Assembly: GCA_030867685.1 (NCBI GenBank)
Contig: JAQOWU010000003.1
Span: forward strand, 434,001-498,000
Origin: Wickerhamiella versatilis
Taxonomy: Eukaryota
Length of the DNA: 64,000 nucleotides
Direction: 5' to 3'
Shown here: piece after piece, positions 1,329 through 58,892 of the stretch
How positions within the stretch are numbered: position 1 is the first letter of the stretch
Layout of the letters: each line of letters begins with the position of its first letter
Translations under genes and position numbers: made by a program
Notes under the pieces: model-generated
Seen by the model: only the letters and a program-made list of their open reading frames with translations
Database searches by the model: none
Told to the model about the DNA's origin: nothing

Positions 1329-3035
1329 CTATCTAGGAGATATACCGTCAGCATCTTCAACATGTTCAACATAGTTTTTCTCATTAAATTTCTCCTCGTC
1401 TGTAACCGTAACGCTATCGCCAGTGTTGTTGGCAATCCTCTTAATATCGGGTACAACTGGTTTCCATTTGCTGCTGCGCCATGCAGGAACGCCTTCGTCC
1501 CACATTTGTCCGATTTCTTCGAGGGTGAAGCCTTTGGTTTCAGGGAACATAAAAAAAATCTGGATTGCCATCACGACACAAAATGTACCAAAGATGAAGT
1601 ATGTCTTGTAAGTAATGTGTTCAAAAGCACTAGGAGTAAACATCCCAATGGCAAAATTGAAGATCCAGTTAGTAGCGGTCGATAGTCCGACTGCAGTCGC
1701 ACGCTGCTCCAACGGGAAGATTTCTGAGGTGTAGATCCAAGCTGCTGGTGCCCATGTTGGTGCATATGCACAAACACAAAGATATGACATTGCGATCGCA
1801 GCTTTAGAGGCAGCCTTTTGATCTTTGGGAATTTTAATCTTTACGGTAGATCCAAATTCATTAGGGTCTGCTGGAACAGAGACAGCAGCGAGGATAGCAC
1901 CCTCACACCACATAAAAACGCCAATGAGGATCGATCCCCAGAACATCAATCTTCTTCTACCCCATCGATCGACAAAAAATAGTGTTGGAAGCGTCATCAC
2001 TACAAAGAGGATATACTGTATACTACTCGAGACCAGAGTGACAGTTCTTTGGCCTTCAGGAGTAGAGGTATCACCTCCGAATCCACTTCCCGCCATTTGA
2101 AATATGTACACCACGTAATACATGATGATGTTCATACCTGTCAGCTGCTGCCACATCTGAGTGCACATTCCAACTATGGTGCGCCTGAGATTCGTCTTAC
2201 CTCGGAAAAGATCCAAAAAGCCAAACTTGGATGTTTGCTGAGCGATCACAACCTCTTTTATTTCTTCGAACTCCACCATAACGACCTCTGTATCCTCGTT
2301 TCCGCCGCTTTGGATCTGAGCAATTACTCGACGGCAATCATCCCATCGACCTTTCTGAGCAAGCCAACGAGGTGACTCTTCTAGGAAAAGCATTCCAATA
2401 AAGAGAATAGCACCTGGAATCATTTGGATACCCCAGGCCGTTCTGAATGACATCTGTGACTTTCGATGGCCAATGTAGCCACATCCAAAAGAGATGAAAA
2501 ACATAATCAGAATACCCCATTCGACAGCCCACTGGAATAAGCCGACAAGTCGACCACGAATATGCTTTGGTGCCATTTCGGAGACATATACGGGTACTTG
2601 GGATGACGCAAACCCGACTGACCATCCAGCGATCACGCGACCAAATATGAGCTGAACTATATTCTGTGAGGAGCATTGAATTGCGGCCCCAATAACCCAA
2701 ATTAGCGCAGAAAGCTGGATACATGTACGTCTTCCTAGCAAATCCGATGTGGAACCAGACACGAGTGAACCCAAGAAGGATCCCCCCGCCATGGATGCAG
2801 TGATTCCTGCTTGCCTTAAGGACGGCATGGTGTAGCTTCCTGTGCTGGGATCAATAACACCAAACCATTCTGTAAATGGCTCATCGCCTACGAAGCCACT
2901 CATGGAAGATATGTCAAATCCGAATAAAGATCCTCCCATTACAGCAATGATGGTTGTCAAATAAACATTGTGAATTTTTTTTGGTAGTGAAATATCGAGA
3001 CCATTCGATAAGTCAAACAGATTACGGCCAGCCAT
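1329..3035 (-). CDS. HGT1: High-affinity glucose transporter, sugar porter family (Hgt1-like)
   Basis: GSLFGFDISSMS, SDLLGRR, VYVSEMAPKHIRGRL, EESPRWL, QMWQQLTGMNIIMYY, FPETKG. Start placed at MAGRNLF (3035), not the ORF-track 3257. Confidence 0.9.
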   Translation of the reverse strand: MAGRNLFDLSNGLDISLPKKIHNVYLTTIIAVMGGSLFGFDISSMSGFVGDEPFTEWFGVIDPSTGSYTMPSLRQAGITASMAGGSFLGSLVSGSTSDLLGRRTCIQLSALIWVIGAAIQCSSQNIVQLIFGRVIAGWSVGFASSQVPVYVSEMAPKHIRGRLVGLFQWAVEWGILIMFFISFGCGYIGHRKSQMSFRTAWGIQMIPGAILFIGMLFLEESPRWLAQKGRWDDCRRVIAQIQSGGNEDTEVVMVEFEEIKEVVIAQQTSKFGFLDLFRGKTNLRRTIVGMCTQMWQQLTGMNIIMYYVVYIFQMAGSGFGGDTSTPEGQRTVTLVSSSIQYILFVVMTLPTLFFVDRWGRRRLMFWGSILIGVFMWCEGAILAAVSVPADPNEFGSTVKIKIPKDQKAASKAAIAMSYLCVCAYAPTWAPAAWIYTSEIFPLEQRATAVGLSTATNWIFNFAIGMFTPSAFEHITYKTYFIFGTFCVVMAIQIFFMFPETKGFTLEEIGQMWDEGVPAWRSSKWKPVVPDIKRIANNTGDSVTVTDEEKFNEKNYVEHVEDADGISPR

Positions 3036-3603
3036 ATCAATTTCTGTCTGAAAGGCATGCGTTATATGATAACTAGGTGCCTGCTTACTCCTGGTCAGGA
3101 GATGCATATGCAAGGTTGCCCCGCACTCCCTAGAGGATTTGAACCACGCGTCATCAATGTTTAGGGCAAGGGCACGTAGGATCCGGTCAGGACTTTCTGC
3201 TTTTATCGGAAAAACTGAGATTTTAAAGGGCCTAGTAGCAGCTATTCTATTCACCATACCACTTCAAAGTATGCAAGTGTCGGTACATGGCTGCTCGAGA
3301 CAGAGTAGCCATAATTACAAATACCCCCCGCATTAGACGTTTTAAAGCGGCAAATACGGAATCGACACATTCACATGCTTTCACTCCATTTTTTTTGACA
3401 TATTCGCATGGAAAATTTGTATTCACAGTAAATTTCAATAAGAAGACTGGTGAAGACTTCTCCTTTCACAAAAAGAGGTACCATGATCTATGGTTAGGGT
3501 AGACCCTGAGTATGCCTTGCAAATAGTGCCGTGTATACCAATTGCTGACGTCACTTATATATATATTGGTGCCGTGTTGCGGCGAAAATTACTTGGTAAA
3601 AAT

Positions 3604-5229
3604 ATGCTTAGGGGGAAAAAGCTTGTGTTAGTGATCAATGCCGTGTGCTGCACGGCAATATTTTTCTTCGGTTATGACCAAGGTATGATGAGTGGTGTCA
3701 ACAATACTCCAGACTATGTGGAATTAATGAATATTGGCACAAAAGTACCTCCGGACCACCAGAATTCGCATTATACCGTTCATGTGACAAACCAGGCACG
3801 TCTTGGTGGTATCGTCGCGGTTTATTATCTTGGAACACTATTTGGAGGAATCCTAGCGGCTTGGCTGAGTGAAAAATACGGCCGAATAAACGGAGTACGA
3901 ATGGCATGTGCATGGGTTTTAGTGGGGGCTGCGCTTCAAGCATCAGCCCAGAATATGAATTGGATGATATGCTCGAGAACGATCACTGGTCTAGGCACAG
4001 GAAGTCTTAATGCCGCCATTCCTGTATATAGTGCTGAAACTGCAGATTACGACGTTCGAGGCACTAGTATTGCCGTGGAGTTCTTTCTAAACATCGCTGG
4101 CGTTGTTGTTGCCTACTGGATTGAATATGGTCTTTCATACGTGGACCAAGGCGATTCTTCTGTACGTTGGCGTTTTCCAATAGCATTTCAGCTAGTGCCA
4201 TTGCTGATACTTGCATTTACAATTAATTTCATGCCTGAGAGTCCCCGATGGCTTGTCAGTAAAGGGAAGGATGATGAAGCCAGGAAGGTTTTGCGAAGGC
4301 TTCGTGCAGACGAAGAAAAAGCTGAAGCTGAATATCAGGATATCAAAGAGAATGTACAGGAAGACCGAGAAATAGACGACTCCTTCTGGAAAATGCCGAT
4401 TTTTTCTCAAGGTAAATTGAATATTAATCGTAGGGTCCAAATTGTATTCTGGTTTCAGATATTCCAAGAGTGGGCAGGGATAGCCGCAATCACAGTATAT
4501 CAACCTACAATTTTTGCCCAGGCAGGATTTGATGCCAATAAGTCCGATTGGCTGAGTGGCCTAAATAATGTCTGCTACATGCTTTCAACACTAGTGGCTG
4601 TTTTCACGGTAGACCGTATCGGGCGACGGAACCTGAGCATGATTGGAAGCTTTGCGCAAGCGGTGGCAATGTTTCTTATCGGCGCATTCAGTTATAAGGC
4701 TAAAACCACGGGAAATGATAGCTATGGTGCTGCCAGTGCAGCATTCGTTTTCATATATACAGCAGCTTTCGGTTCGTCCTGGCTCAGTACGCCGTGGATA
4801 TATCAGAACGAGATCTTCCCTGTTCAAATACGAGTCAAAGGTGCCGCATGGGGCGTTGCTGGCTGGTCCATTGGCAATGGATGGCTGATGCTTTTAAGTC
4901 CTGTTATGTTCAATGCGATTGCAGAAAAAACTATGTACATTTTCGGCGCAGTGAATATTTTATGTATTCCGTTGGTATACTTTTTTGTACCAGAGACTGC
5001 TCAACGTACACTGGAGGAGATCGAGTGGCTATTCTCACCGAAGAGCATATTTGCTAAGGATGCAGAAAAGGCATATATGGCGAAATCTATGGCTAAAGGT
5101 AGTCATGCCAAAGCAGTAGACATTGCGACACATGATCCAGAAACTGGAAAGCTTAAATACGAAGGAAATGCAGAGCATATTGAAAACGTAGGATCTTCAG
5201 ACTCAGCTACAAAACTGAGTTTTGAGTGA
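3604..5229 (+). CDS. Sugar porter MFS transporter, Stl1-like (polyol/glycerol or sugar:H+ symporter)
   Basis: FFGYDQG, WRFPIAFQ, PESPRWL, VDRIGRR, PETAQRTLEEI; first in-frame ATG at 3604. Confidence 0.85.
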   Translation: MLRGKKLVLVINAVCCTAIFFFGYDQGMMSGVNNTPDYVELMNIGTKVPPDHQNSHYTVHVTNQARLGGIVAVYYLGTLFGGILAAWLSEKYGRINGVRMACAWVLVGAALQASAQNMNWMICSRTITGLGTGSLNAAIPVYSAETADYDVRGTSIAVEFFLNIAGVVVAYWIEYGLSYVDQGDSSVRWRFPIAFQLVPLLILAFTINFMPESPRWLVSKGKDDEARKVLRRLRADEEKAEAEYQDIKENVQEDREIDDSFWKMPIFSQGKLNINRRVQIVFWFQIFQEWAGIAAITVYQPTIFAQAGFDANKSDWLSGLNNVCYMLSTLVAVFTVDRIGRRNLSMIGSFAQAVAMFLIGAFSYKAKTTGNDSYGAASAAFVFIYTAAFGSSWLSTPWIYQNEIFPVQIRVKGAAWGVAGWSIGNGWLMLLSPVMFNAIAEKTMYIFGAVNILCIPLVYFFVPETAQRTLEEIEWLFSPKSIFAKDAEKAYMAKSMAKGSHAKAVDIATHDPETGKLKYEGNAEHIENVGSSDSATKLSFE

Positions 5230-5437
5230 ATTGCTATCGTGCATCTGGATGATTCGACTGAAAACAACCCGAAACCTGTCAAATGCTTAAACTTAGCATC
5301 GCCAAAAATAGAATCTATCTCTATTTCCTTATCTCGTTTAAGAAATATGACAATAATATGCTTTTACAATCACATATAGTTCGAAGGAGGCTGAATGATA
5401 TAGTTACCTAATCTATATACACTTGCTGTAGTGGAAT

Positions 5438-6589
5438 ATGAGCACTGCTAGTAGTTCGAATCTTCATGATTCAGGTAGTGAAAACGCCAGGTCTACAGGC
5501 GAGCAAATTGAAGGAGCTGCAGCGGCTACTGGTGGAGATCAAGGCGGTCATGAAAGTGGTGGACCACCCAAGAAGGTGTCTGATTTACCACCTCCCCCTC
5601 CTCCTCCGTCTGCAAGTAACCGAGACAATGTTGGGTTTAATGAAGAAGCATTGCATGATATTCGGGATCCTAAATCTTTGGTGGGATATATAGTACCATT
5701 ACCAAAGCCACCAAACGCTGGTGACCTCCCAGTGAGGTTTCTTATATACACGCCACCGCCTCCCCCATTAAAGAAGCCTGAGGATGGTGAGAAGGAAGGA
5801 AAGAGGCACAAAATAGGTAGGAAGTGGCAAGAAGAAGTACGCGAAGCTAAGTCGTCTGATGCTAAGCTAACATCATGGGAAGGAGTGAAATCATCTGCAA
5901 TGAAGGGAATATCTAATGTGATGTCAAAAACAAGCTCTTCCAATGTTGACTTTCTGGGAAGACTCAACATAGGAGAAAAGGGCGAGTCTTCCACCCAGCC
6001 TGATAAACTGATTTTATTCTACCCTGCAAGTTTTCCCAGTAGCCCGGACGAAATGAGATCCGAATTTATTAATACCATGATGCGCGCTAAAAATAAAGCA
6101 CAGAGAGATGCTGTCATTGCCACGGGTCTTCTACCTGTTGCCGAAGCTGTGGATATCCTTGCAACTGTTGTATGGCCTTTTGGCGGATTAATTGAGATCG
6201 ACGGTATATGGGCATACTCAAGCATTCGTGGAGCAAAGGCTGCACATGACATTAACAAGCGTCTCGACAATGCGGGTTCTGATAGTCAACTCACACTAAA
6301 ATTCGTTCCTCTCGAACATATTGACTTACTTTCGCGTTATCTCGAATGCGTGTGTCACGATGTAGACAAAAAGAGATTTCCGACTTTTAAGATCCCCCCG
6401 AGACACTTGGAACTACTGAAAGCCATAGGATGGGCTTCTAGTGATGACAATGCTTCTGAACAAGATACTAGATACGAAACTTCAGAGGTTATCGAAGATA
6501 TGCGGAGCGTTTTCAAAAAATCTGCGAAAGAATGGGTGAAATGGCTTCATAAGTATGATGAGAATCCTGAGAAGGCTTTAAAGAAATAG
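5438..6589 (+). CDS. Hypothetical protein, Pro-rich N-terminus, one weakly hydrophobic segment
   Basis: 383-codon ATG-initiated ORF with protein-like composition; no family confidently recognised. Confidence 0.75.
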   Translation: MSTASSSNLHDSGSENARSTGEQIEGAAAATGGDQGGHESGGPPKKVSDLPPPPPPPSASNRDNVGFNEEALHDIRDPKSLVGYIVPLPKPPNAGDLPVRFLIYTPPPPPLKKPEDGEKEGKRHKIGRKWQEEVREAKSSDAKLTSWEGVKSSAMKGISNVMSKTSSSNVDFLGRLNIGEKGESSTQPDKLILFYPASFPSSPDEMRSEFINTMMRAKNKAQRDAVIATGLLPVAEAVDILATVVWPFGGLIEIDGIWAYSSIRGAKAAHDINKRLDNAGSDSQLTLKFVPLEHIDLLSRYLECVCHDVDKKRFPTFKIPPRHLELLKAIGWASSDDNASEQDTRYETSEVIEDMRSVFKKSAKEWVKWLHKYDENPEKALKK

Positions 6590-6888
6590 AATTATATATA
6601 TATGATGATTGCAATAATAACTTAAGTAAAGAAAAGTCATGAAAAAGTAAGATAGTGTCCACGATAACATGCATGAAGTTCCTGTCGATAGGAATCTCTG
6701 GCTAAACATATGGACTGTTTTGCGCAGACTTGGAGAACACGCATCTCATACACGGGCAGTCTTGCTATCAGTACGAACTAATGAGGAAACTTGATACAGG
6801 GTTTCAAGGCATATGAGGTATTGCTATACCATTTTAGGATTTAATTCCTTAACTAAAACTTTGGAGAAAGATTTAGAAAATAGGAGTA

Positions 6889-7836
6889 TCAAGAAATTGA
6901 GTCCTTGGGCACTCGTTGTTTAGACCATTCTAATATATTACCTCTGATATGGCCAACAGATCCATATGGGAAAGCAATGTTCTTACTATTATGTCCGATA
7001 GGCATACCGGAAATGACAGGAATTCCAGTGGGTCTCAGCCATTCCTCGATGATATCCTTTACAGTCATTCCATCATCCTTGTCAGTGGTGCACTGAAAAA
7101 ACTCACCGAGCACCACTGCAGTAATTTTTTTGAAGTCGAGATTCCCTAATAGTTGGATAAAACATCTTTCGAGGGCGTAGAAAGGCTCATCAACATCCTC
7201 AAGCAGTAAAAAGCTGGGATCGTTTATTTTAATTTCTGCTGCAGTGCCACATAAACTAGCCAGTACCGTGAGATTACCCCCAACTAGCAGAGATTCAAAA
7301 TCTGTGGAGAATTCTGGTTTTGAGGAGAGTGCTATATGGCCTATATTGTCCTTCAATGCAGCTGATATTGAGGATAACGATTTCCATCTCTCTGATTCAG
7401 TGACTAATGGGTCATCGAGATCAAGCTTGTTTACTTCTACAGCGACAGGTCCATGGATAGATGGTAAACCATGGCGTTGAAAATTTACGTGCAAGGTAGT
7501 GATGTCTGAATAACCAATTATTGGACGGTTTCCTGCCTTTTTAAGTCGATTCCAGTCTATGTGCTCTATCAACTGCGCTGCTCCTGTACCACCACGCAGA
7601 CACCATACTGCATCGATATCAGGACGCTCGTAAGCCTTGTATAAATCATCAATTCGCTGTGCAATAGTACCAGCACAAAAGAAGTGATGTGCGTAGACAT
7701 TGTCGCCTGGGAATGTCTCGATTCCTAACATATTCAAGCGACGGATGCATTCGTCAATGGCACCGTCTTCGGGTGGACTTGCAGGTGCCACTAACGCGAC
7801 CCGCTTAGGCCAAGGCCAAAGTGACTGCAGGAACAT
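6889..7836 (-). CDS. ldcA: LD-carboxypeptidase (peptidase family S66), bacterial type
   Basis: VALVAPAS, AGTIAQRIDDL, AVWCLRGG, catalytic Ser in GYSDIT, HGPV, GGNLTVL, Glu in LEDVDE, His in PIGH, AFPYG. Confidence 0.93.
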   Translation of the reverse strand: MFLQSLWPWPKRVALVAPASPPEDGAIDECIRRLNMLGIETFPGDNVYAHHFFCAGTIAQRIDDLYKAYERPDIDAVWCLRGGTGAAQLIEHIDWNRLKKAGNRPIIGYSDITTLHVNFQRHGLPSIHGPVAVEVNKLDLDDPLVTESERWKSLSSISAALKDNIGHIALSSKPEFSTDFESLLVGGNLTVLASLCGTAAEIKINDPSFLLLEDVDEPFYALERCFIQLLGNLDFKKITAVVLGEFFQCTTDKDDGMTVKDIIEEWLRPTGIPVISGMPIGHNSKNIAFPYGSVGHIRGNILEWSKQRVPKDSIS

Positions 7837-8741
7837 TGATATCGATAGTCAGAGCTGACGCATAAAAAACACAAACCGCCACTATTTTGCACTGGATTTA
7901 CACGGAGCCCAAGTGTAAGTAAGTAATTTTCCTGAAATAGCTTATTTGACTTCAGACTTGAATAGCTATGGCTTTCCCATAAACCTATTCAAATAAAGTA
8001 GAGAGATGACAACCAGCAGCTGGGGCTAAATTAAGCTACTATTTCCAGATGGATGCAGAGCTAAGAGCATAGAACATACGCCGTCACGATGCTCTTTCCA
8101 TATGGCATGTCAAATGTGACTTACGAAGATCAGCAAGCTTGTATCCCAAACAACGCGCTCGCAATAAGATAGCCCACTTTTTACCTCACAGTTGTAACCA
8201 AAGACAAATATAGAAGGTTTTTATTAAGTCAAATTGGCCTTTTTTTCTTTTCTTAGTTCTTTAATCAGATGCAAAATCGCCACAAATAGGTCCTATGACA
8301 ATGTATACAGTTCCAAAATTCCTGACTGTCGATCCAGCGCTCTATATACTGTCCATCGGTTCGTATGGACAAATTATATTGCACTCTCAACTTTAGCCCT
8401 TAATGAAACGATGAAATTGGACCACGATGAAATATCATGATATTTGGCTTTAACTTATCTCCTAAACCGCTATTTCGGCAGTGGGCGTAGAGACACAGCG
8501 AGAAATCAACAATCGATGTGAAATCCTATCAGCGTTTTGAGCGTATACAAATAAATAGACTCATTAACATTGACTTAAGGTACAGAAACTCGGCACTATC
8601 TTTAAAAATATGGCTATAAATATAGCACAGGAAGAAAACTGCTGCCTGAAAATATCGGATCAAGGACTCCAGAAGCATGCGTATACGCATAAAACGTGTT
8701 AAGCCGCTAAAACCTAACTCCGATGATCTGAACTTTGATTT

Positions 8742-9068
8742 CTAGCAGAACATGCGAGGAATACCACGTGACAAATGAACAGAAGGCTCTGGTGTACTCG
8801 ATGGCCTTATCCAATTAATTAAAACGTTCAAAGATGACATTTTCTGTCGGAATTTTGGCACAGCTTGTTTCAAGGGCATAGGTTTGCTGACAGGAGAATG
8901 ATGGGGTGCAACAGTGACTTGTACAGTTCCACAGCTAGAAGAAAAATCAGAGAGCGTATTTATGTCCACAAAAGCGTCGTCTTTTACACTGTCACCCATA
9001 CCGAGGATGCAGGTAGATGGATGACTAAACGGAATTCCGCGCCTCGACAGATCTTCGACCACAGGCAT
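8742..9068 (-). CDS. Possible orphan small protein (108 aa)
   Basis: ATG-initiated ORF in otherwise non-coding space; no motif recognised. Confidence 0.2.
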   Translation of the reverse strand: MPVVEDLSRRGIPFSHPSTCILGMGDSVKDDAFVDINTLSDFSSSCGTVQVTVAPHHSPVSKPMPLKQAVPKFRQKMSSLNVLINWIRPSSTPEPSVHLSRGIPRMFC

Positions 9069-9390
9069 CTCGGAATCGGAAAGATCTTAGTTGTCATGAC
9101 TACTGCATAACTGGTATCAATTCCTGGATTCATAGATATTATCTATCTCGATTATTTCAATGTTTTTTTTACTTGATTTTAGTCTTTGCGTTTTTTTCTA
9201 TCAACTGAAATCATACCTCGTATATTAAAAGCGAACATTTACTAACTTCCCTTTCACTTGGCCAGACATTTAATAATCTAGGGTTCCCAAGACTTCCAGG
9301 AAATACCGGTAATTTTGGACGAGAGTGTGAATAAAGATACCTTCCTTCTCATTAGCACAATGTAGAAGTTTATTTCATTGAAGTGCCTGC

Positions 9391-11160
9391 TCAAATCAAA
9401 GCACCACTACCATGAGGTGCAAGGAATTGATCAGGTATTTCGTGTGGATAGTGTTCCCGGTATTCGTGATATAATTCAGAGGCACGGTGTATGCTACGTC
9501 TCGACCAACTCTGTGACACTTGAGATGCCGTTTCCGACATTTCATCACCAGCAACAGCATTCTCATATGGTCTTGGATCTTCATCTCCAGGTAGTCTGGC
9601 GGCTGCGGAATGGAAGGAAGGTGCACTTCTGTCATCTGGAATATTATCTCCTGTCTCAGGCTCTTTGATTTCTGACGACTCTTTAACGCTTGCCGCCTTC
9701 CTGTGTGATTTACGTTTATCCACTGAATAGTGCATTATGCACATTATAATGGAAACAACAATTGAGGCCGCGCTCAAACCAAAGGCAAACCACATACAAT
9801 TCTTATGCACCTTTAAGATGTCCCCAGGATGATGTGCAAAAGTGCGCTCTTCCACTGTTCCAGCAAGTCCCATAAGACTTGCTTGACTGTAATTTACTAG
9901 TGCAGACGTCAGGGACCCTGCCATTCCCTGAAGGTCATGAGGAAGCAGATCACTCAGCAAAACAGCAGAGGCTGTCCAGTTCAAGTCACAGCCCCACACA
10001 ATTTCTACCCAGAATCCAAGCGACTGGCGAAAGTATGTTTGATCAACCTTCAGAGTGAGTAGCAATACATCTCCCGCAAAGAAGAAAACCATAGAAATTA
10101 CTTGTATCAAGTGAACTGGAATCCATCTAAGCACATATCCACAGGTCAACGCGGCAACCCCACCAGAGATTATAGCTGGAACGGTGCAGGCACCTGTCTG
10201 GAGGGGGTTGTAGTGGCGCAATTGAAGTACAAACACAAAAAACCTGTAAAAAGCAATGCCGAAAGAACCCCATCCAAGGAAGGTTCCAAGAATAGCCAGC
10301 AGTACCCTTGAGTTCTTTACTACTGCTCCCGGTAGAAGTGGATTACTGGGATAATGCACTTCATACCAAATAAAAAAAGCAAGCTCAACTACCGAAACTA
10401 TCAGCAATACAATAATATATGGGTTATCCCACCCGGCCACAGGTGCTTGGTTAAAAACAAAGCATAATAATACCAGTCCCACTACAGCAAGACCACATCC
10501 TATCCAATCAACCGCAGCCTTTTGATGCTCGAAATGTGGCATAGAATACCAAGTCAATGCAGCAGCTAAAGCAGTGGCAATAGAGTATGCCCAGCAAATC
10601 CAATTCCAATTCGGAGTGAACTCACCGATCAATCCAGACAAAATGGGTCCACAGCACCCCCCAATTGGAGCTGCTACACCAATTAGACCAAATGCCATGA
10701 ATTTGCGTTTGCTCCCGGCAGGGTACACACGACCAGCGGCGCCCAAAACATTTGGAAGCACAAAAGCTAGACCAATTCCTTGAAAGGCACGGGACACGAT
10801 AAAAAAGGTTGGATTTTTTACATAGAAGGCAGCACCGCTCAAAATCCCCCAAATTGTCGTCCATGCAAAGCCAAGCATGACGGTGAGCCGAAGGCCAAAT
10901 ATATCGCCGATACGGCCGCTCATTAGAATCATAGTACCACTGGTTAGGGAAAAGGAGGACATATACCAAGTTCTTTGAGCATCTGTGCTGTCGTAATAGT
11001 CGCTTAGCACGTCCAAAAGAGGTAGTGTATAGTTTGTGCCAAATTGAGTGAACAGCTGCGACATAATACAACTGAACACAAATATGTACTCTTGTGATGG
11101 ATGCTTCGCAAATAGCCGAGGGTCTTGAAACCTTGAGGACCTATCCTTGTGGTCCTTCAT
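9391..11160 (-). CDS. 14-TM MFS drug:H+ antiporter (DHA2; Atr1/Amf1-like)
   Basis: SGRIGDIFG, RAFQGIGLAFVLPN, VDWIG, NQAPVAGWDNPYII, LQGMAGSLTSALVNYS; first ATG (MKDHKD) at 11160. Confidence 0.88.
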   Translation of the reverse strand: MKDHKDRSSRFQDPRLFAKHPSQEYIFVFSCIMSQLFTQFGTNYTLPLLDVLSDYYDSTDAQRTWYMSSFSLTSGTMILMSGRIGDIFGLRLTVMLGFAWTTIWGILSGAAFYVKNPTFFIVSRAFQGIGLAFVLPNVLGAAGRVYPAGSKRKFMAFGLIGVAAPIGGCCGPILSGLIGEFTPNWNWICWAYSIATALAAALTWYSMPHFEHQKAAVDWIGCGLAVVGLVLLCFVFNQAPVAGWDNPYIIVLLIVSVVELAFFIWYEVHYPSNPLLPGAVVKNSRVLLAILGTFLGWGSFGIAFYRFFVFVLQLRHYNPLQTGACTVPAIISGGVAALTCGYVLRWIPVHLIQVISMVFFFAGDVLLLTLKVDQTYFRQSLGFWVEIVWGCDLNWTASAVLLSDLLPHDLQGMAGSLTSALVNYSQASLMGLAGTVEERTFAHHPGDILKVHKNCMWFAFGLSAASIVVSIIMCIMHYSVDKRKSHRKAASVKESSEIKEPETGDNIPDDRSAPSFHSAAARLPGDEDPRPYENAVAGDEMSETASQVSQSWSRRSIHRASELYHEYREHYPHEIPDQFLAPHGSGALI

Positions 11161-13242: not shown

Positions 13243-15018
13243 ATGGATAAACTCAAAGAATTTTTTGCGAAGCGGCTTCAATATGAGCCAGAGACGGCTG
13301 ATCAAAAAGCCGTCATCCGGGAGTTAGCCAGCGTTCAGCAGCATGTTGATGCTATCGGCCATGTCGACGAAGATACGAAAAATGAGAGGCAATATGATGC
13401 ATTTCTGGAGCATGCCGACGATGAAGAGCATCAAGCATCTAGATCTTCCAGTAGATCTTCTCATAGCATCGTTGTTGACGAAAAAAAGGAAGACAAGCCA
13501 GTTACGGAAGATCGTTACGAGTCTAAGGTAGTTCACTCTGGTGACAAGGAGATCATCTATATATCGTTCGGTAAGGACGATCCAGAGGATCCTTATAATT
13601 GGACTAGGGGACGGAAGGCGTTCTGTGTATTCATCATGATGTTTCTTACATTTATCGGTGGTATCGCCGGTGCTTCTCTAAGTGCGGGTACGTCGAGTAT
13701 GACTGAGGAGCTGCACACAAATGCGGAGCTAGCACGCTTTGGCTACACGATATTTATATTTGGCTTCGCAGTTGGCCCACTTGTGACCTCTCCTCTCGCT
13801 GAAGATTACGGCAGGTGGCCATGTTATATGGCAGGAATTTTTGCAATCTTAATTTTTACTGTACCGGTTGGAGCAGGACATCATATTGCTGTTATCATTG
13901 TATTCCGCTTCCTGGGTGGTTTCATTGGCTCGGTAGCGTCCTCCATGATTTCTGGAACTATAGCAGATATTTACTTGCCTAATGATCGCGGTTATCCTAT
14001 GCTTTGGCATACTGCTATTAACTTCCTTGGTAATGTTGCTTCTCCAGTCGCATTTGGATATGTTGGTTGGTTAATGTCTTTCCGTTGGATTTGTTGGATC
14101 CTCATCATGGGTTGTGGACTTACCATGCTTCTCATGTTTCTATTCATGGAGGAGACCCGTGGGCAGGTCATCCTCCAAACTCGTGCGAACAAACTGCAAA
14201 AAGCTCATGGTGGACCTAACAAGGTCTTCTTGGTTCACGGAAAGGCCTATATTCCTATGTATAAGAAACTTTCACGAACGTTGACGAGGCCTATCATATT
14301 TTTGTTTACCGAACCTGTGGTCGGGTTCTTTTCGTTATGGATGGGTTTTACATGGGGTATGATTTATATTAACTTCGCGCTGGTCCCTGCAGTAATGGAG
14401 AATGTTTACGGGATGAATGTTGGTCTAGCAAATATGACAGAGGTTTCGGAAATTGTTGGTATCCTCATAGGTTGTTTATTGGATATCGGCCAGCAATACA
14501 TGTATCAACGTGGCAAGGCGAAGCGTGGTCCAGAAGCGCGTTTGTATTCTTCATGTCTTGGTGGAATTTTGTGCTTTGTGGGCATTCTCATATTTGGTCT
14601 CACACAAAACTATGGTTGGAATGGCCAAACCGATGGTGCCGCGAGTGTTCGTCCTTGGTCAGAATTCGATGGCCACAGGCGTGGAAATGTACATTGGATG
14701 GGCCCCATTTGTGGACTTGCTATACTTCTTATCGGTGTGGTAACAATTTTCCAGGCCATTAGTTTATACTTTGCTGATTGTTATGGTACATATGCCAGCT
14801 CGGCACTGGCCGCACAATCTCTCTTGCGAAATATCTGTGGGTTTGCCTTCCCGCTTTTCACGAATCAAATGTTTGAAGGAATGGGTTATTTGTGGGCTTC
14901 TATTTTGGCAGCTCTGGTTTGCGCAGTACTGGCAATTGTGCCATTCTGGCTACTTATATGGGGCAAATCGTTGCGTGACAAATCTAAGTACACGGTAAGT
15001 GATGACGAACTTATCTGA
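13243..15018 (+). CDS. 12-TM MFS transporter of DHA1 type with an Ffz-like N-terminus
   Basis: DDPEDPYNW, SPLAEDYGR, EETRG, TEPVV, PEARL, YASSALAAQSLLRN; N-terminal QKAVIRELASVQQHVDAIG recalls Ffz fructose facilitators (from memory). Confidence 0.85.
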   Translation: MDKLKEFFAKRLQYEPETADQKAVIRELASVQQHVDAIGHVDEDTKNERQYDAFLEHADDEEHQASRSSSRSSHSIVVDEKKEDKPVTEDRYESKVVHSGDKEIIYISFGKDDPEDPYNWTRGRKAFCVFIMMFLTFIGGIAGASLSAGTSSMTEELHTNAELARFGYTIFIFGFAVGPLVTSPLAEDYGRWPCYMAGIFAILIFTVPVGAGHHIAVIIVFRFLGGFIGSVASSMISGTIADIYLPNDRGYPMLWHTAINFLGNVASPVAFGYVGWLMSFRWICWILIMGCGLTMLLMFLFMEETRGQVILQTRANKLQKAHGGPNKVFLVHGKAYIPMYKKLSRTLTRPIIFLFTEPVVGFFSLWMGFTWGMIYINFALVPAVMENVYGMNVGLANMTEVSEIVGILIGCLLDIGQQYMYQRGKAKRGPEARLYSSCLGGILCFVGILIFGLTQNYGWNGQTDGAASVRPWSEFDGHRRGNVHWMGPICGLAILLIGVVTIFQAISLYFADCYGTYASSALAAQSLLRNICGFAFPLFTNQMFEGMGYLWASILAALVCAVLAIVPFWLLIWGKSLRDKSKYTVSDDELI

Positions 15019-17092: not shown

Positions 17093-18073
17093 ATGCAGTT
17101 CCAATCTACCATTCTTGCTTTTCTCGCGGTCAGTTTAGCTACAAGCTGGAGTAACACTACAGTCACCGCTAAGCCCACTGTTTATTTCACAACATATTGT
17201 CCGAGTCCAACAACTTTCACGTATGGGACAGGGACATACACTGTAACGAAGCCTACAACGCTCACCATAGAGGACTGCAGCTGCACCGACAAAGTTGGCT
17301 CATCAGCCGTCAAAACTCATTCAAGCCCTCTTGCTGCCGCCAAGTCGTCTCCAGTGGTCTTAAGCTCGCATCCTCCATCCCAGGCAGCATCATCAGGTAC
17401 CGCTGGAAAGACTGTCACCGAAGAAAAAACTAGCTTCACAACATATTGTCCAAGCCCCACTACTTTCACACATAATTCGAAAACATACACTGTGTCTGCG
17501 GCTACGACATTGACCATAGAAGATTGTGACTGTACCAAGGAACATCCCACCTCAGCTGTGGAGACGGCTTCAAAGTCTCAAACGGTACCTAAGATCGCAT
17601 GGTCGAGTAGACCGGCGGGTAGCCCTTCATCGCTAACCAATGCATCATCAAAGTCTGTTGCTGCAGTGACAGGCTCTCCCTCTGCATCTGAGGCATCAGC
17701 TTCGGGAACTGGTAAGACTGTTACCAAGGATATAACTACATTTACAACGTATTGCCCGAGCCCTACGACATTCACACATAACTCGAAAACCTATACGGTG
17801 ACAGCACCAACCACGGTATCTATTGAAGAGTGCGACTGCACAGAGACCCCAACAGAGAGTTCAGCGATTTCGATGATAACATCTACCAAAGGACCCAAAA
17901 TAACGTCTTCGGTTTCTTCTGAAGTATCTTCTTCATCCACGAGCTCCCCAATCTCCACATCTACTAGCGCTACGCCCTCAGCGTCTACCTCGCTACCGGT
18001 TGCCAATGGTGGAACCACTAACAGGATTACGGCAGTAGCGGTAATTGCTGCAGTAATTTTGCATCTTTTTTAA
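17093..18073 (+). CDS. GPI-anchored cell-wall mannoprotein with three Sed1/Ccw12-type TTYCP repeats
   Basis: Signal peptide, Ser/Thr-rich, 3x [24 protein letters not shown], hydrophobic C-terminal tail after ANG. Confidence 0.9.
17170..17845 (+). repeat. Three intragenic ~110-bp imperfect repeats encoding the TTYCP modules
   Basis: ttcacaacatattgtcc and variants recur near 17186, 17435 and 17741. Confidence 0.85.
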
Positions 18074-21065: not shown

Positions 21066-21977
21066 CTAGAATGCTGAGTCTTCGATCGGGTTAGTTGCAG
21101 TTTTATTATTAGAGAGCCCACTTTTTTCAAGATTTCCAACTAATGCCGACAAGCTCTCACCAATAGGAGATGAGCACTTATGCAAATACAGATGGTCAGC
21201 GCGTGTATGACCTTGGTTCAAGCAAAGAATCGGTAAATTTAAGCTATGAGCCTCACGGGCGAATCGATAGCCTGAAAAAACCATAAGAGAACTTCCTACC
21301 ACCCATAGCCCATTGCTTTTTCTGAGCATCGACATTGATGCATCCAGGACGGAACGAGAGACATTTGACCCAAAATAAACAACATCTGGCTTCATTATTC
21401 CTTCATTACATGAGGGACATGGTGGTACTGTGAATGAAGAAAAGTCCCCCTCTATATAGGCATCACCATCCGGGGCTATAGCTACTGGACCTGAATCTGG
21501 CTTGGCCCAATGAGGATTGAGATGTGAAAGGTGGTGATGCCAACTATCCCGTTGCTCGCGGAAACCACATGTCATGCATACTACTTGGTCAGCCCTTCCA
21601 TGTAGGTCAATTACACGGGTGCTTCCAGCACGCTGATGTAGACGATCAACATTTTGTGTTATGATACCATTGATGATACCTTTTCTTTCAAGTATTGCAA
21701 GTGCTTTGTGTCCTTGGCCTGGCTTTGCATCTAACAAAGCTTGAAACCCAATAAGTGCCCTGGCCCAGTATCGTTGTCTGGCAGCGTGACTTCCCATGAA
21801 TTTCTGGTGGCTCATTGGTGGTGGCCGCTTCCACTCACCGGAAGTATCGCGATAATCTGGAATTCCTGATTCTGTACTGATTCCAGCACCAGAAACTACA
21901 CATAAGGGTGAATGGGCAGCAATGAGCTCTGCCAGTTTGTCAAAGGATTGACGGTAACAAATAGAAGAAAATTTCAT
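21066..21977 (-). CDS. NAD-dependent deacylase, class II sirtuin (bacterial CobB2/SIRT4-like)
   Basis: GAGISTESGIPDYRD, RQRYWAR, ITQNVDRLHQRAGS, LHG, CxxC...APDGDA...CxxC, KPDVVYFG, GSSLMVFSGYRF, NQGHTRAD. Confidence 0.92.
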   Translation of the reverse strand: MKFSSICYRQSFDKLAELIAAHSPLCVVSGAGISTESGIPDYRDTSGEWKRPPPMSHQKFMGSHAARQRYWARALIGFQALLDAKPGQGHKALAILERKGIINGIITQNVDRLHQRAGSTRVIDLHGRADQVVCMTCGFREQRDSWHHHLSHLNPHWAKPDSGPVAIAPDGDAYIEGDFSSFTVPPCPSCNEGIMKPDVVYFGSNVSRSVLDASMSMLRKSNGLWVVGSSLMVFSGYRFAREAHSLNLPILCLNQGHTRADHLYLHKCSSPIGESLSALVGNLEKSGLSNNKTATNPIEDSAF

Positions 21978-24418: not shown

Positions 24419-24656
24419 ATCTGAGAATATGCTTATATTAGTCAAAAAAACAAGACATGCCGTGATCCTTCCGAATCAGGTATGGTTATTGAACACAATA
24501 AATTTAAACATTAGAACAGTTTGTTTTAGCACAATATAGAATTTTACAGCTAAAACCTGCCTATTAATGGTTAAAGAATAAATTGAATCATTTGGAATGA
24601 GTGAATTCGATAAAGTGATTTTTTTCGTTGGTATTAGTAACTTTCTTGTACTGTGT

Positions 24657-57617: not shown

Positions 57618-58892
57618 CTATATACACTTCACGACGTGGTACTCTGTTTTACCAACACGTACAAGAAGAAGCTGATCAACAAGATCCTCTACAGTAACAA
57701 GGCGGTTATCAACTATTCGACGAGACGTACCAACGTACACACTGCGTTGCTTAAGCAGCCTGTCACACTCTGAGCCGGAGCGCTGTGTAATTGTCGCTAA
57801 AAGCTTTTTCCAAGGCATGGAAATAGCTGGTAATTTTTTCACTAGGCCCTGAGATTCAAATGCCTTAAGAATCTGTGCCGATGTAGCGTCTGCATGCTCA
57901 AAGACTACCTTGCTTACCATTGCCGCATCTTCAGCCAGCTCAGGCCCATGCACGAGCTCACAAACCTCTGAAGCGAGTCTTCTTTGTGGGATTCGTAACT
58001 CTGGTTTATGCCTCTGAAGGTCCTCAATTTCTGACATGGGTAACAAAGTGAACATTTTAAGGTATTTTCCAACGACGCTATCTGGAACGTTGAGAAAATA
58101 TTGATAGAGATGGTAGGGTGCAGTAAACGACTTGTCTAGGAATACTGCATTTCCCGCACTTTTGCCAAACTTTTCACCACTGGGTGTCGTAAGAAGAGGA
58201 ACTGTAAGTCCTTGAGGTTCCGGAGAACCTTGCTTTTTTAGGCGGTTAATGAAATCAATGCCTGCAGTAATATTCCCCCACTGATCGTGACCGCCAACTT
58301 GCACCACACAGCCTTTCTCGGAATAAAGATGCCAAAAGTCATATGCTTGCATCACTTGGTACGCAAACTCTCCAAATCCTATACCATCATGAGTATCAAG
58401 CCGCTGACGCACGCTCTCTCGAGCCAACATGGCCGAAACCCGAATGTAACGTCCGAACTTGCTCAGGAACCCAAGAAAAGTGACATCCTTCCACCAGTCG
58501 AAATTATTCACAGGAATTACAGGGCCACTATTGGTATAGCCGTACTTTTTGCCAAGTTCAGCACCGTTCTCGAAGAATTTCAGCATCTGGGCTTGAATTT
58601 GGTTAACGTTTTTTTGACGTTGTTCATCTTCGATCAATTTGCGCTCCGACACCCGACCACTAGGATCCCCAACCGACCCTGTGGCTCCTCCAACAAGGGG
58701 TATGATAGTCTGTCCGCGTAAATTAAACTGCAATAATACCATTAAAGGAAGAAGGTTACCTAGATGCAAAGACGGGGCACTTGGGTCAGCACCACAGTAC
58801 ACTGGTCCATTGATAAACTCAGAAGTAGACTGTGATATTAAAGAGCGCTGCCTCAACTCCCCTACAAATGTGGATAAGCGGCGTCTCAGCAT
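57618..58892 (-). CDS. MSY1: Mitochondrial tyrosyl-tRNA synthetase
   Basis: YCGADPSAPSLHLGNL, GDPSGR, EFAYQVMQAYDF, QVGGHDQWGNI, KFGKSAGNA; Arg-rich presequence MLRRRLST. Confidence 0.95.
   Translation of the reverse strand: MLRRRLSTFVGELRQRSLISQSTSEFINGPVYCGADPSAPSLHLGNLLPLMVLLQFNLRGQTIIPLVGGATGSVGDPSGRVSERKLIEDEQRQKNVNQIQAQMLKFFENGAELGKKYGYTNSGPVIPVNNFDWWKDVTFLGFLSKFGRYIRVSAMLARESVRQRLDTHDGIGFGEFAYQVMQAYDFWHLYSEKGCVVQVGGHDQWGNITAGIDFINRLKKQGSPEPQGLTVPLLTTPSGEKFGKSAGNAVFLDKSFTAPYHLYQYFLNVPDSVVGKYLKMFTLLPMSEIEDLQRHKPELRIPQRRLASEVCELVHGPELAEDAAMVSKVVFEHADATSAQILKAFESQGLVKKLPAISMPWKKLLATITQRSGSECDRLLKQRSVYVGTSRRIVDNRLVTVEDLVDQLLLVRVGKTEYHVVKCI

What the first reader, a model, noticed from the sequence alone, without database searches (positions are those of the whole stretch)
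6889..7836. Intact Pseudomonas-type peptidoglycan LD-carboxypeptidase in a yeast genome
Seen: an intronless 315-aa ORF with the full S66 Ser-Glu-His triad, flanked by eukaryotic genes. Known: LdcA-type S66 enzymes remove terminal D-Ala from murein tetrapeptides, and yeasts have no peptidoglycan. From memory the protein is colinear with Pseudomonas aeruginosa LdcA (RVAL.APAS, AVWCLRGG, RP.IG.SDI, RHGLP.IHGPV, PYG...GN.L.W). Inference: a bacterial horizontal transfer kept intact. Possible roles are scavenging bacterial cell-wall peptides or detoxifying peptide-conjugated toxins, as the S66 member MccF does. No signal peptide is evident, so the substrate would need to be imported.
Basis: partly seen in the sequence, partly recalled or inferred. 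Interest (0 to 1): 0.8.

Follow-up and report, generated by a model that had tools for sequence, protein, structure and literature searches.

The report
Bacterial LD-carboxypeptidase gene in a yeast
A budding yeast of the Wickerhamiella/Starmerella group carries an intact, fully domesticated copy of a bacterial cell-wall-recycling enzyme gene (ldcA), acquired long ago from a Halomonadaceae-like bacterium. It is one more example of the heavy bacterial gene uptake already known in these yeasts, and its use to the yeast is still untested.

Summary
Window 6889..7836 (-) is an intronless 315-aa ORF with both S66 domains. It is colinear with P. aeruginosa LdcA (PDB 1zl0, E 1e-66; model TM 0.85-0.94), and the Ser110/Glu213/His282 triad is in place.

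The gene lies in a 64-kb fungal contig whose mitochondrial TyrRS is closest to Wickerhamiella sorbophila. Independent metagenome contigs bridge both of its junctions.

Bacterial origin is well supported:
- All 35 organism-named hits among the best 120 are Gammaproteobacteria.
- In the tree, the yeast trio (window, a 99% variant, a 69% homologue from a sister species) groups with Halotalea and Carnimonas (Halomonadaceae) at 93/90 support.
- An AU test rejects a Pseudomonas donor (p 0.0045).

The transfer is old. GC3 is 0.39, against 0.65-0.73 in bacterial ldcA genes, and the sister-species copy appears syntenic.

Evidence for maintenance is mixed. The window keeps 38 of 41 family-conserved residues, but a conserved R-Y-L motif has become F-F-C. 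A relative about 3% divergent shows a frameshift at codon 80. I could not show expression.

Bacterial genes are already known by the hundred in this yeast clade, and LdcA xenologs are known in aphids and a few fungi. This is therefore a new member of a known kind, of moderate interest.

The parts
6889..7836 (-). Intronless ORF of 315 aa encoding an S66 LD-carboxypeptidase (LdcA type), of bacterial origin
   Evidence: ORF. Both Pfam S66 domains. PDB 1zl0 at E 1e-66. AF2 model pLDDT 95.1, Foldseek TM 0.85-0.94 to P. aeruginosa LdcA. Tree.
7507..7509 (-). Codon of the catalytic nucleophile Ser110, in the G-Y-S-D-I nucleophile elbow
   Evidence: Aligns with the Ser of PA5198 that PDB 2aum names as active-site Ser115. 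Invariant in 42 of 42 sequences. Codon read.
7198..7200 (-). Codon of the triad residue Glu213 (L-L-E-D-V)
   Evidence: Aligned with the VLEDV motif of PA5198. Invariant.
6991..6993 (-). Codon of the triad residue His282 (I-G-H-N)
   Evidence: Aligned with the His of PA5198 that PDB 2aun names as active-site His285. Invariant.
7675..7683 (-). Codons 52-54, F-F-C, where 118 bacterial relatives have R-Y-L (each at least 95% conserved) and the sister-species copy has R-Y-F
   Evidence: The same F-F-C is present in the independent variant P0001, so it is not a sequencing error.
7599..7599 (-). Site (codon 80) where a relative about 3% divergent (run X19, organism A) lacks one base. Its product would stop after 88 aa, before Ser110
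   Evidence: table 4 (one contig, depth 11.4). Consequence computed.
6590..6888 (.). 299-bp tail-to-tail spacer between ldcA and the neighbouring gene 5438..6589, with no bacterial remnant
   Evidence: no tblastn hit better than E 0.02 against 9 bacterial ldcA loci. Bridged by an X12 contig covering 6377-6994 and an X18 contig covering 6635-8132.
7837..9390 (.). 1.55-kb upstream region (presumed yeast promoter), with no bacterial remnant
   Evidence: Bridged by a 5688-nt X12 contig that covers 7032-9400 and runs on a further 3.3 kb.
5438..6589 (+). Adjacent 383-aa gene of no Pfam family. Outside this yeast and its sister species, its relatives are all Pezizomycotina, so it is probably a second xenolog
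   Evidence: 26 of 26 organism-named hits among the best 120 are Pezizomycotina by my own knowledge of their taxonomy; the 76% homologue P0388 lies on a 76194-nt contig.

Best explanation
A single bacterial ldcA gene was transferred into a common ancestor of this Wickerhamiella/Starmerella-clade yeast and one sister species. ldcA encodes the cytoplasmic S66 serine LD-carboxypeptidase of peptidoglycan recycling. The donor was a gammaproteobacterium close to the Halotalea/Carnimonas branch of Halomonadaceae. The gene landed in a region rich in transporters and other foreign genes, gained a yeast promoter, and has fully taken on host base composition and codon usage.

The protein keeps the two-domain S66 fold and the Ser110-His282-Glu213 triad, and has no targeting signal. 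The most likely activity is therefore the ancestral one, carried out in the yeast cytosol: removing the C-terminal D-alanine from L-Ala-gamma-D-Glu-mDAP-D-Ala stem peptides (free or muropeptide-bound) that come from neighbouring bacteria. This would open them to further breakdown as a nitrogen and amino-acid source in bacteria-dense food fermentations.

Shown here: the gene, family, fold and triad, the bacterial origin, the approximate donor lineage, the age of the transfer and its physical linkage to yeast DNA. Inferred: expression, activity, substrate, uptake and benefit. My confidence is about 0.93 in the transfer and about 0.45 in the proposed activity and role. The figure given is for the whole statement.
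For: Family and fold: Pfam S66 and S66C; PDB 1zl0 at E 1e-66 over residues 7-305; AF2 pLDDT 95.1, with the best Foldseek matches all P. aeruginosa LD-carboxypeptidase at TM 0.85-0.94. LdcA-type rather than MccF-type: MccF chains reach only E 4e-16, over part of the protein.

Bacterial origin: 35 of 35 organism-named hits among the best 120 are Gammaproteobacteria. In the exhaustive search of 1.84 billion representatives the best is Halotalea at 326 bits, then Pseudomonas at 241. In the careful ML tree of 70 rows the yeast trio has 100/100 support, the trio plus Carnimonas and Halotalea 93/90, and the enclosing gammaproteobacterial clades 98/89 and 100/98. The AU test rejects a clade of yeast plus Pseudomonas, p 0.0045. 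The nearest Atlas clusters are 100% Bacteria.

Host and linkage: fungal genes fill the 64 kb. The best named match of the mitochondrial TyrRS is Wickerhamiella sorbophila at 57%. The 4-kb stretch around the gene is held at half its sampled words or more by 18 of 24 listed runs, and contigs from X12 and X18 bridge both junctions.

Age: GC 0.442 and GC3 0.389, within the range of the other 25 window ORFs (GC3 0.349-0.470), against GC3 0.654-0.729 in five bacterial ldcA genes. The sister-species homologues of LdcA (69%), of the adjacent gene (76%) and of TyrRS (77%) are each listed with a longest contig of 76194 nt.

Constraint: the window keeps 38 of 41 columns that are at least 95% conserved in 118 bacterial relatives, and the sister copy keeps 40 of 41.

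Precedent: the horizontally acquired aphid LdcA is enzymatically active (PMC8689515, abstract read). A Halomonadaceae origin is already listed for two other genes of this yeast clade (PMC5897096, supplement file 5). One of these appears to be in this window.
Against: I have no evidence of transcription. The one true metatranscriptome laid (X20) has contigs only on the neighbouring gene. X19 is only guessed to be RNA.

In X19, a relative about 3% divergent, the gene lacks one base at codon 80, and 4 of the 6 listed in-ORF differences are nonsynonymous. The gene therefore looks dispensable in at least one lineage.

The window copy has lost three consecutive residues that are at least 95% conserved (R52F, Y53F, L54C). 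I could not establish their role.

Yeasts make no peptidoglycan. No uptake route for stem peptides and no downstream enzyme was identified here. No whole genome was available.

The Halotalea/Carnimonas grouping has 93/90 support, below the tool's star threshold. The AU group was tested after I had seen the tree.

Confidence: 0.55

Rival explanations
1. Passenger xenolog in slow decay. The transfer is real, but the gene gives the yeast no benefit. It persists in a low-expression, xenolog-tolerant chromosomal region and is being lost lineage by lineage.
For: A 1-nt deletion at codon 80 and 4 nonsynonymous differences out of 6 listed in the X19 relative. The conserved R-Y-L motif is lost in the window copy. 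No transcript evidence. The published picture is that many xenologs of these yeasts are weakly expressed or unexpressed and evolve under relaxed purifying selection in chromosome 'end' domains (PMC13376923: abstract, section 10 and passages read). Neighbouring genes also look foreign.
Against: The ORF has stayed open and colinear in two species that are 31% apart at the protein level, about as far as the adjacent gene (24%) and TyrRS (23%). The window keeps 38 and the sister copy 40 of the 41 conserved columns, and the triad is untouched. A relative-rate test shows no consistent acceleration: it is significant with 1 of 5 outgroups. The frameshift rests on a single contig.
Confidence: 0.27
2. 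Changed substrate. The enzyme has been recruited to another C-terminal hydrolysis, for example MccF-like cleavage of peptidyl- or aminoacyl-nucleotide antibiotics, or of other D-amino-acid-containing peptides made by co-fermenting bacteria.
For: S66 also contains the MccF detoxifying enzymes, which share the fold. The R-Y-L to F-F-C replacement in the window copy could mark a change in specificity. LdcA enzymes are promiscuous, with an additional endopeptidase activity in the aphid and E. coli enzymes (PMC8689515, abstract read).
Against: The protein sits firmly in the LdcA subfamily: E 1e-66 to LdcA against 4e-16 and partial coverage for MccF, and TM 0.85-0.94 at 39-40% identity against about 0.8 at 17-22% identity. 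The sister copy keeps R-Y. Nothing nearby suggests an antibiotic context.
Confidence: 0.1
3. Artefact: bacterial contamination or a chimeric join in the assembly.
For: Nothing positive. The protein's relatives are all bacterial.
Against: GC3 and codon usage are those of the host, not of the 57-61% GC bacterial loci. Fungal genes lie on both sides within one 64-kb stretch. Contigs from independent metagenomes (X12 at 100% identity; X18 with 18 differences in 1498 nt) cross both junctions. No known bacterial sequence exceeds 51% identity.
Confidence: 0.02
4. Vertical inheritance: an ancient fungal S66 gene that has been lost almost everywhere else.
For: S66 genes do occur in a handful of Dikarya (PMC5567314, passages read).
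Against: That paper places most fungal S66 sequences in a separate clade next to oomycetes. Here no fungal sequence appears among the best 120 hits apart from the two unnamed yeast-like ones, and the yeast trio is nested inside one gammaproteobacterial subfamily. I could not put the Pezizomycotina S66 sequences into the tree, because no tool returned them.
Confidence: 0.02

Closest known systems
P. aeruginosa LdcA (PA5198; PDB 1zl0, 1zrs, 2aum, 2aun), a cytoplasmic S66 LD-carboxypeptidase
   Same: Colinear over residues 7-305 at about 40-45% identity (E 1e-66). Same two-domain fold (TM 0.85-0.94). Same Ser/Glu/His triad and GxSD elbow. Same length, and no signal peptide.
   Different: It is encoded in a yeast chromosome with host codon usage. 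R-Y-L has become F-F-C at residues 52-54. It is not the closest lineage: the AU test rejects a clade of yeast plus Pseudomonas.
LdcA of Halotalea alkalilenta and Carnimonas spp. (Halomonadaceae)
   Same: The closest sequences known, at 51% and 45-47% identity. They group with the yeast trio at 93/90 support. They come from the same family as the apparent donors of other genes in this yeast clade.
   Different: Their genes have GC3 around 0.65 (Carnimonas) against 0.39 in the yeast. In Carnimonas the gene sits between an iron-chelate ABC transporter and a FUSC-type gene, neither of which came along. At 51% identity, no sampled bacterium is the actual donor.
Aphid LdcA (ApLdcA), a bacterial ldcA acquired by an animal
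   Same: A eukaryote-encoded, horizontally acquired S66 LdcA. It has been shown to be active on peptidoglycan substrates (PMC8689515, abstract read; PMC2662799, search listing only).
   Different: The aphid enzyme acts on a resident endosymbiont in bacteriocytes, and no symbiont is known for this yeast. It was an independent transfer from a different donor, which I recall as being of rickettsial type; I did not check this here.
Bacterial xenologs of Wickerhamiella/Starmerella yeasts
   Same: Same host clade and the same pattern: single metabolic enzyme genes, under 70% identity to any donor, shared by related species, clustered with Pezizomycotina-derived genes (PMC13376923, sections 6 and 10 read; PMC5897096, supplement file 5).
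   Different: I found no S66/LdcA gene named in the text or readable supplements of these papers. Its substrate is a bacterial cell-wall peptide rather than a sugar, cofactor or fermentation intermediate.
MccF (microcin C7 self-immunity peptidase, S66)
   Same: Same family and fold, and the same triad.
   Different: Much more distant (E 4e-16 over part of the protein, 17-22% structural-alignment identity). MccF proteins are 30-55 residues longer.

Membership tests
MEROPS/Pfam S66 LD-carboxypeptidase family | N-terminal Peptidase_S66 domain (PF02016) above the gathering score | tested here: met
   105 bits against a cut-off of 25, covering profile positions 1-121 of 121.
MEROPS/Pfam S66 LD-carboxypeptidase family | C-terminal Peptidase_S66C domain (PF17676) above the gathering score | tested here: met
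   92.2 bits against a cut-off of 23.7, covering profile positions 3-116 of 120.
MEROPS/Pfam S66 LD-carboxypeptidase family | Ser-His-Glu catalytic triad at the aligned positions, with Ser in a G-x-S-D nucleophile elbow | tested here: met
   Ser110, Glu213 and His282 align with the PA5198 triad. The PDB titles of 2aum and 2aun name Ser115 and His285 as active-site residues. All three are invariant in 42 of 42 sequences.
MEROPS/Pfam S66 LD-carboxypeptidase family | Two-domain S66 fold | tested here: met
   AF2 pLDDT 95.1 and pTM 0.92. Foldseek TM 0.85-0.94 to 1zl0/1zrs, and all of the best 46 ranks are S66 entries.
LdcA subfamily (muramoyltetrapeptide carboxypeptidase), Pseudomonas/Halomonadaceae type | Closer to characterised LdcA than to MccF, and placed inside the LdcA clade in a tree | tested here: met
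   E 1e-66 for LdcA against 4e-16 for MccF. Nested in a gammaproteobacterial LdcA clade with 100/98 support.
LdcA subfamily (muramoyltetrapeptide carboxypeptidase), Pseudomonas/Halomonadaceae type | All subfamily-conserved residues retained | tested here: inconclusive
   38 of 41 columns that are at least 95% conserved are kept. R52, Y53 and L54 are replaced by F, F and C. I did not find the role of this motif in the papers I read.
E. coli-type LdcA equivalog (NCBIfam NF008424) | Score above the curated equivalog cut-off of 378 bits | tested here: not met
   113.7 bits. The control P. aeruginosa LdcA also fails at 106.7 bits, as do Halotalea (118.3) and Carnimonas (141.5). The model is therefore specific to the enterobacterial type, and failing it says nothing about activity.
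LdcA subfamily (function) | Hydrolysis of the mDAP-D-Ala bond of peptidoglycan tetrapeptides | not testable with these tools
   Needs an enzyme assay.
Expressed, functional xenolog of a W/S-clade yeast | Transcribed in the yeast | tested here: inconclusive
   The metatranscriptome X20 has no contig on the ORF. X19, guessed to be RNA, covers it, but its nature is uncertain and its copy is frameshifted.
Expressed, functional xenolog of a W/S-clade yeast | Purifying selection (dN/dS below 1) between species | not tested
Only protein-level conservation is available.

The most novel reading that the evidence does not exclude
The yeast runs a step of bacterial peptidoglycan salvage for its own benefit. 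Stem tetrapeptides or muropeptides shed by the dense bacterial populations of its fermentation habitats are taken up, perhaps by the transporters that surround the gene, and LdcA removes the terminal D-alanine in the cytosol. Ordinary peptidases, and the bacterial-type D-amino-acid enzymes known in the clade, can then finish the job. That would be a eukaryotic, non-symbiotic use of a murein-recycling enzyme for feeding on, or sensing, neighbouring bacteria. The F-F-C change could mark adaptation to the peptides met in that niche.
Probability: 0.2. Interest if true: 0.65.

Novelty: new member of a known kind. Interest (0 to 1): 0.4.

Why it matters
The gene adds a cell-wall-peptide enzyme to the catalogue of bacterial genes in Wickerhamiella/Starmerella yeasts, which so far is dominated by sugar, cofactor and fermentation functions. 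It also points again to Halomonadaceae as donors.

If the enzyme is active, this would be a free-living eukaryote processing peptidoglycan fragments from its bacterial neighbours. The aphid LdcA case is different, because it serves an endosymbiosis. An active enzyme would also give a simple, testable handle on yeast-bacteria interactions in food fermentations, using a knockout and growth on stem peptides.

If instead the gene is decaying, it is a dated example of how xenologs are lost. An intact allele and a frameshifted allele in close relatives would make it a useful pair for studying the retention of foreign genes.

Tried and rejected
- Whole genome: none is held for this window, so I could not look for uptake systems, D-Ala enzymes or a second copy.
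- Cluster look-up for the unnamed relatives: switched off. The link between P0002, P0268 and P0388 therefore rests only on the shared longest-contig length of 76194 nt.
- Expression: the metatranscriptome X20 has contigs only at 5511-6060, on the neighbouring gene, and none on the ORF. This is no evidence either way. X19's uneven depth (32.6, 11.4 and 21.8 on three contigs) and its contig breaks between genes look RNA-like, but the run's type is a guess.
- Faster evolution in the window lineage: the tree's branch lengths suggest it (0.34 against 0.15). Tajima-type counts are significant with only 1 of 5 outgroups (27 against 10 with Halotalea; 17/18, 21/18, 23/16 and 13/18 with the others). 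The TyrRS and neighbour-gene controls are symmetric. I rejected this as unproven.
- Co-transferred bacterial neighbours: 54 six-frame pieces of the two flanks searched against 9 bacterial loci gave nothing better than E 0.02. The Carnimonas neighbours (FecCD, Peripla_BP_2, FUSC) are absent from the window.
- Other possible bacterial genes in the window: the M19 dipeptidase is only 33-35% identical to Halomonadaceae genes. DUF1275 has no match in 3 of 3 genomes. The nearest Atlas clusters of the GT25 'LPS' ORF are Ascomycota. None was followed further.
- NCBIfam equivalog cut-off: not met, but uninformative, because the P. aeruginosa enzyme fails it too.
- Role of the R-Y-L motif: not found in PMC5646250 or PMC8689515 (passage searches). 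PMC3889619 is not held. Searches gave no paper that settles it.
- Prior report of this gene: full-text searches and supplement searches (PMC13376923; PMC5897096) found no S66/LdcA/K01297/PF02016 entry for these yeasts. Two supplement files of PMC13376923 are cut, one spreadsheet is too large, and its PDF and DOC files are unreadable, so the gene may still be listed there.
- tRNA scan of the window: 0 genes.
Full report
THE OBSERVATION

The minus strand of the window holds an uninterrupted ORF at 6889..7836 (ATG to TGA, 315 aa). Pfam finds both halves of the S66 LD-carboxypeptidase architecture well above their gathering scores: Peptidase_S66 at residues 13-129 (105 bits against 25) and Peptidase_S66C at 183-293 (92 bits against 23.7).

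Against all PDB sequences the best matches are the four entries of P. aeruginosa PA5198/LdcA, at E 1e-66 to 1e-64 and aligned over residues 7-305. Ser110 (GYSDI), Glu213 (LLEDV) and His282 (IGHN) align with the triad. PDB titles name 'active site Ser115Ala' and 'His285Ala' mutants of that enzyme, and all three residues are invariant in a 42-sequence alignment.

An AlphaFold2 model built on that alignment is confident (pLDDT 95.1, pTM 0.92). Its best Foldseek matches are the same P. aeruginosa entries (TM 0.85-0.94), followed by other LdcA and MccF structures. MccF chains match the sequence only weakly (E 4e-16, over part of the protein), so this is an LdcA-type member and not an MccF-type one.

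The NCBIfam equivalog model for E. coli-type LdcA is not reached (113.7 bits against a cut-off of 378). The P. aeruginosa enzyme itself also fails it at 106.7 bits, so that failure is uninformative.

THE HOST AND THE PHYSICAL LINKAGE

The other 25 ORFs of 250 aa or more include unmistakably eukaryotic and fungal genes: a TRF-type telomere-binding factor, GH81 endoglucanase, a large Kelch protein, a tandem-CrcB fluoride exporter, full-size ABC transporters, and sugar and MFS transporters.

The mitochondrial tyrosyl-tRNA synthetase at 57618..58892 is closest, among named proteins, to Wickerhamiella sorbophila (57%), then Sugiyamaella (50%) and Trichomonascus (lineage). [quoted passage not shown] I did not determine the species.

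The ldcA ORF has GC 0.442 and GC3 0.389. Its RSCU correlation with the other ORFs is 0.54, and its window-based adaptation index is 0.773. All four values lie inside the ranges of the other 25 ORFs (GC3 0.349-0.470; correlation 0.27-0.87; index 0.752-0.801). Five bacterial ldcA genes have GC3 0.654-0.729.

The 4-kb stretch 5400-9400 is held at half or more of its sampled words by 18 of the 24 listed public runs. Most of these are food or food-fermentation metagenomes, with some sediment and surface samples.
- In run X12 (100% identity), one contig spans 6377-6994, from the neighbouring gene's 3' end into the 3' end of ldcA. A 5688-nt contig covers 7032-9400 and runs on a further 3.3 kb.
- In X18, a 1498-nt contig covers 6635-8132 with 18 differences.

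Contamination or a chimeric join is therefore not tenable.

ORIGIN

In the 5.8-billion-protein search, the two best hits are unnamed proteins from Logan assemblies. P0001 is 99% identical (2 aa differences) and corresponds to the 1498-nt contig length seen in X18. P0002 is 69% identical (318 aa) and lies on a 76194-nt contig.

Everything else is bacterial: Halotalea alkalilenta at 51%, an unnamed protein at 49%, Carnimonas at 47% and 45%, then Pseudomonas at 40-44%. Of the best 120 hits, 35 carry an organism name, and all 35 are Gammaproteobacteria (Halomonadaceae, Pseudomonas/Phytopseudomonas, Salinisphaera, Acinetobacter and one MAG labelled Stenotrophomonas). None is fungal.

The exhaustive HMMER scan of 1.84 billion cluster representatives agrees. 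It found 8499 hits; the best is Halotalea at 326 bits, followed by a Pseudomonas representative at 241 bits. The nearest ESM-Atlas clusters are 100% Bacteria.

I built a careful ML tree of 70 rows: the window, P0001, P0002, 43 other hits chosen to span the named genera, and 24 more distant representatives (P0121-P0132 and P0134-P0145). I left out the short P0133 and the remaining near-duplicate hits. The results:
- yeast trio: 100/100 (ultrafast bootstrap / SH-aLRT);
- trio plus the Carnimonas group: 87/65;
- those plus Halotalea: 93/90;
- enclosing clades of gammaproteobacterial LdcA: 98/89 and 100/98.

Forcing the trio together with the 17-row Pseudomonas clade costs 31.2 log-likelihood units and is rejected (p-AU 0.0045).

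Halotalea and Carnimonas are Halomonadaceae. The donor was thus a relative of that branch. At 51% identity, no sampled bacterium is the donor itself.

AGE AND EXTENT OF THE TRANSFER

Complete amelioration of base composition argues for an old event.

The sister-species homologues of three window genes are each listed with a longest contig of exactly 76194 nt: LdcA (P0002, 69%), the adjacent gene 5438..6589 (P0388, 76%) and TyrRS (P0268, 77%), the last lying 50 kb away in the window. The simplest reading is one syntenic contig in a sister species, which would place the transfer before the two species split.

No other yeast-like sequence appears above the bacterial hits, so the gene seems confined to this small lineage rather than present across the W/S clade.

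The transfer involved ldcA alone. In Carnimonas the gene lies between FecCD/periplasmic-binding-protein genes and a FUSC-type gene. None of these is in the window, and the yeast flanks contain no recognisable bacterial remnant.

THE NEIGHBOURHOOD

The gene sits among four MFS or sugar transporters (1329-3257, 3490-5229, 9391-11160 and 13243-15018) and next to other apparently foreign genes.
- For the adjacent ORF 5438..6589, once its 99% and 76% yeast copies are set aside, all 26 organism-named hits among the best 120 are Pezizomycotina, by my own knowledge of their taxonomy: Capronia, Exophiala, Aureobasidium and other Dothideomycetes, and lichen fungi.
- The sirtuin ORF 21066..21977 is 56% and 54% identical to genes in the Halomonas and Modicisalibacter genomes. 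The supplement of Goncalves et al. 2018 lists an 'NAD-dependent deacetylase' of Halomonadaceae origin in C. versatilis and W. domercqiae, as well as a Halomonadaceae choline sulfatase (PMC5897096, supplement file 5).

This matches the published description of W/S yeasts. They hold hundreds of xenologs from bacteria and Pezizomycotina, none more than 70% identical to any known donor. These xenologs are often shared between related species and concentrated in low-expression chromosome 'end' domains, where they evolve under relaxed purifying selection (PMC13376923: abstract, sections 6 and 10, and passages).

IS THE GENE MAINTAINED?

For maintenance:
- The ORF is open and colinear in two species 31% apart at the protein level.
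- Of 41 columns at least 95% conserved among 118 bacterial relatives, the window keeps 38 and the sister copy 40, including the triad, the RGG(Y/T)G loop and the GGNL motif.

Against maintenance:
- The window's three losses are consecutive: R52F, Y53F and L54C, inside the family-wide '(R)YLAG' motif. They are real, because the independent P0001 shares them.
- In run X19, a named but coded organism whose laid contigs are about 95-97% identical to the window, the contig covering 6893-8179 (depth 11.4) lacks one base at 7599. That is codon 80, and the product would end after 88 aa, before Ser110.
- Of the six in-ORF substitutions the truncated table shows for X19, four are nonsynonymous.

Relative-rate counts do not show a consistent speed-up in the window lineage, being significant with 1 of 5 outgroups.

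Expression is unresolved. The single true metatranscriptome covers only the neighbouring gene. X19 looks RNA-like, with depths of 32.6, 11.4 and 21.8 on three contigs and contig breaks between genes, but its type is a guess.

MECHANISM

Characterised gammaproteobacterial LdcA enzymes are cytoplasmic. They remove the terminal D-Ala from free or nucleotide- or muropeptide-linked L-Ala-gamma-D-Glu-mDAP-D-Ala during cell-wall recycling (PMC5646250, abstract and introduction passages).

The yeast protein starts at the same residue as its bacterial relatives and keeps the catalytic apparatus. The most likely activity is therefore the same reaction in the yeast cytosol, on stem peptides imported from the bacteria-rich fermentations in which the DNA is found.

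Uptake, further degradation and any benefit are inferred, not shown. I put about 0.93 on the horizontal transfer as described and about 0.45 on this activity and role. The main rival, at about 0.27, is that the gene is a tolerated passenger on its way out. A shifted, MccF-like or other substrate gets about 0.1. Artefact and vertical descent get about 0.02 each.

COMPARISON AND NOVELTY

Eukaryotic S66 genes are already on record in aphids, a handful of Dikarya, oomycetes, a moss and an amoeba, with horizontal transfer proposed to explain them (PMC5567314, passages). The aphid enzyme has been shown to be active and promiscuous (PMC8689515, abstract).

Massive bacterial gene uptake is the hallmark of W/S yeasts, and Halomonadaceae are already listed among the donors.

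Four full-text searches and the readable supplements of two W/S papers name no S66/LdcA xenolog in these yeasts. Some supplement files were cut or unreadable, so a listing there cannot be excluded.

I therefore class the finding as a new member of a known kind: real, cleanly demonstrable and biologically suggestive, but not very surprising to a specialist. Interest 0.4.

Noticed in passing
window 5438-6589 (+): A 383-aa gene with no Pfam family and a proline-rich N-terminus, tail-to-tail with ldcA. Apart from its 99% and 76% yeast copies, all 26 organism-named hits among the best 120 are Pezizomycotina (Capronia, Exophiala, Aureobasidium, lichen fungi; 43-52% identity, often labelled 'secreted protein'). 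It is probably a fungus-to-yeast xenolog.
   Followed up: partly
window 21066-21977 (-): A Sir2-family ORF of 303 aa. It is 56% identical (E 1e-94) to a gene in a Halomonas genome and 54% identical to one in Modicisalibacter muralis. Its best PDB match is 5oj7 at E 4.5e-61. It probably corresponds to the 'NAD-dependent deacetylase, Halomonadaceae' xenolog listed for C. versatilis and W. domercqiae in PMC5897096, supplement file 5. That would be a second gene of Halomonadaceae affinity, 13 kb from ldcA.
   Followed up: partly
window 1329-3257, 3490-5229, 9391-11160, 13243-15018, 24597-26438: Five MFS or sugar-transporter genes within 26 kb, four of them directly around ldcA. This density of transporters and foreign genes resembles the xenolog-rich chromosome 'end' domains described for W/S yeasts. 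I did not test their origin, which could be native or Pezizomycotina.
   Followed up: no
window 15190-16299 (-): An ORF with a Glyco_transf_25 ('LPS biosynthesis') domain and the second-lowest codon-usage correlation in the window (0.29). It looked like another bacterial candidate, but its nearest Atlas clusters are 100% Eukaryota, mostly Ascomycota.
   Followed up: yes
window 19610-20803 (-): A peptidase M19 membrane dipeptidase (E 1e-111). From memory, bacterial members of this family prefer L-Xaa-D-Xaa dipeptides, which would fit D-amino-acid peptide catabolism. It is only 33-35% identical to Halomonadaceae genes, and its origin was not resolved.
   Followed up: partly
window 17093-18073 (+) and 58961-60646 (+): Two sizeable ORFs (326 and 561 aa) with no Pfam family at E 1e-5 or better. 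I did not examine them further.
   Followed up: no
window 8166-8179 and 8021, in run X19: The X19 relative shows loose ends at 8166 and 8179 and a 7-nt deletion at 8021, in the region upstream of ldcA. This points to a small rearrangement or indel in the presumed promoter of the same strain that carries the frameshift.
   Followed up: no
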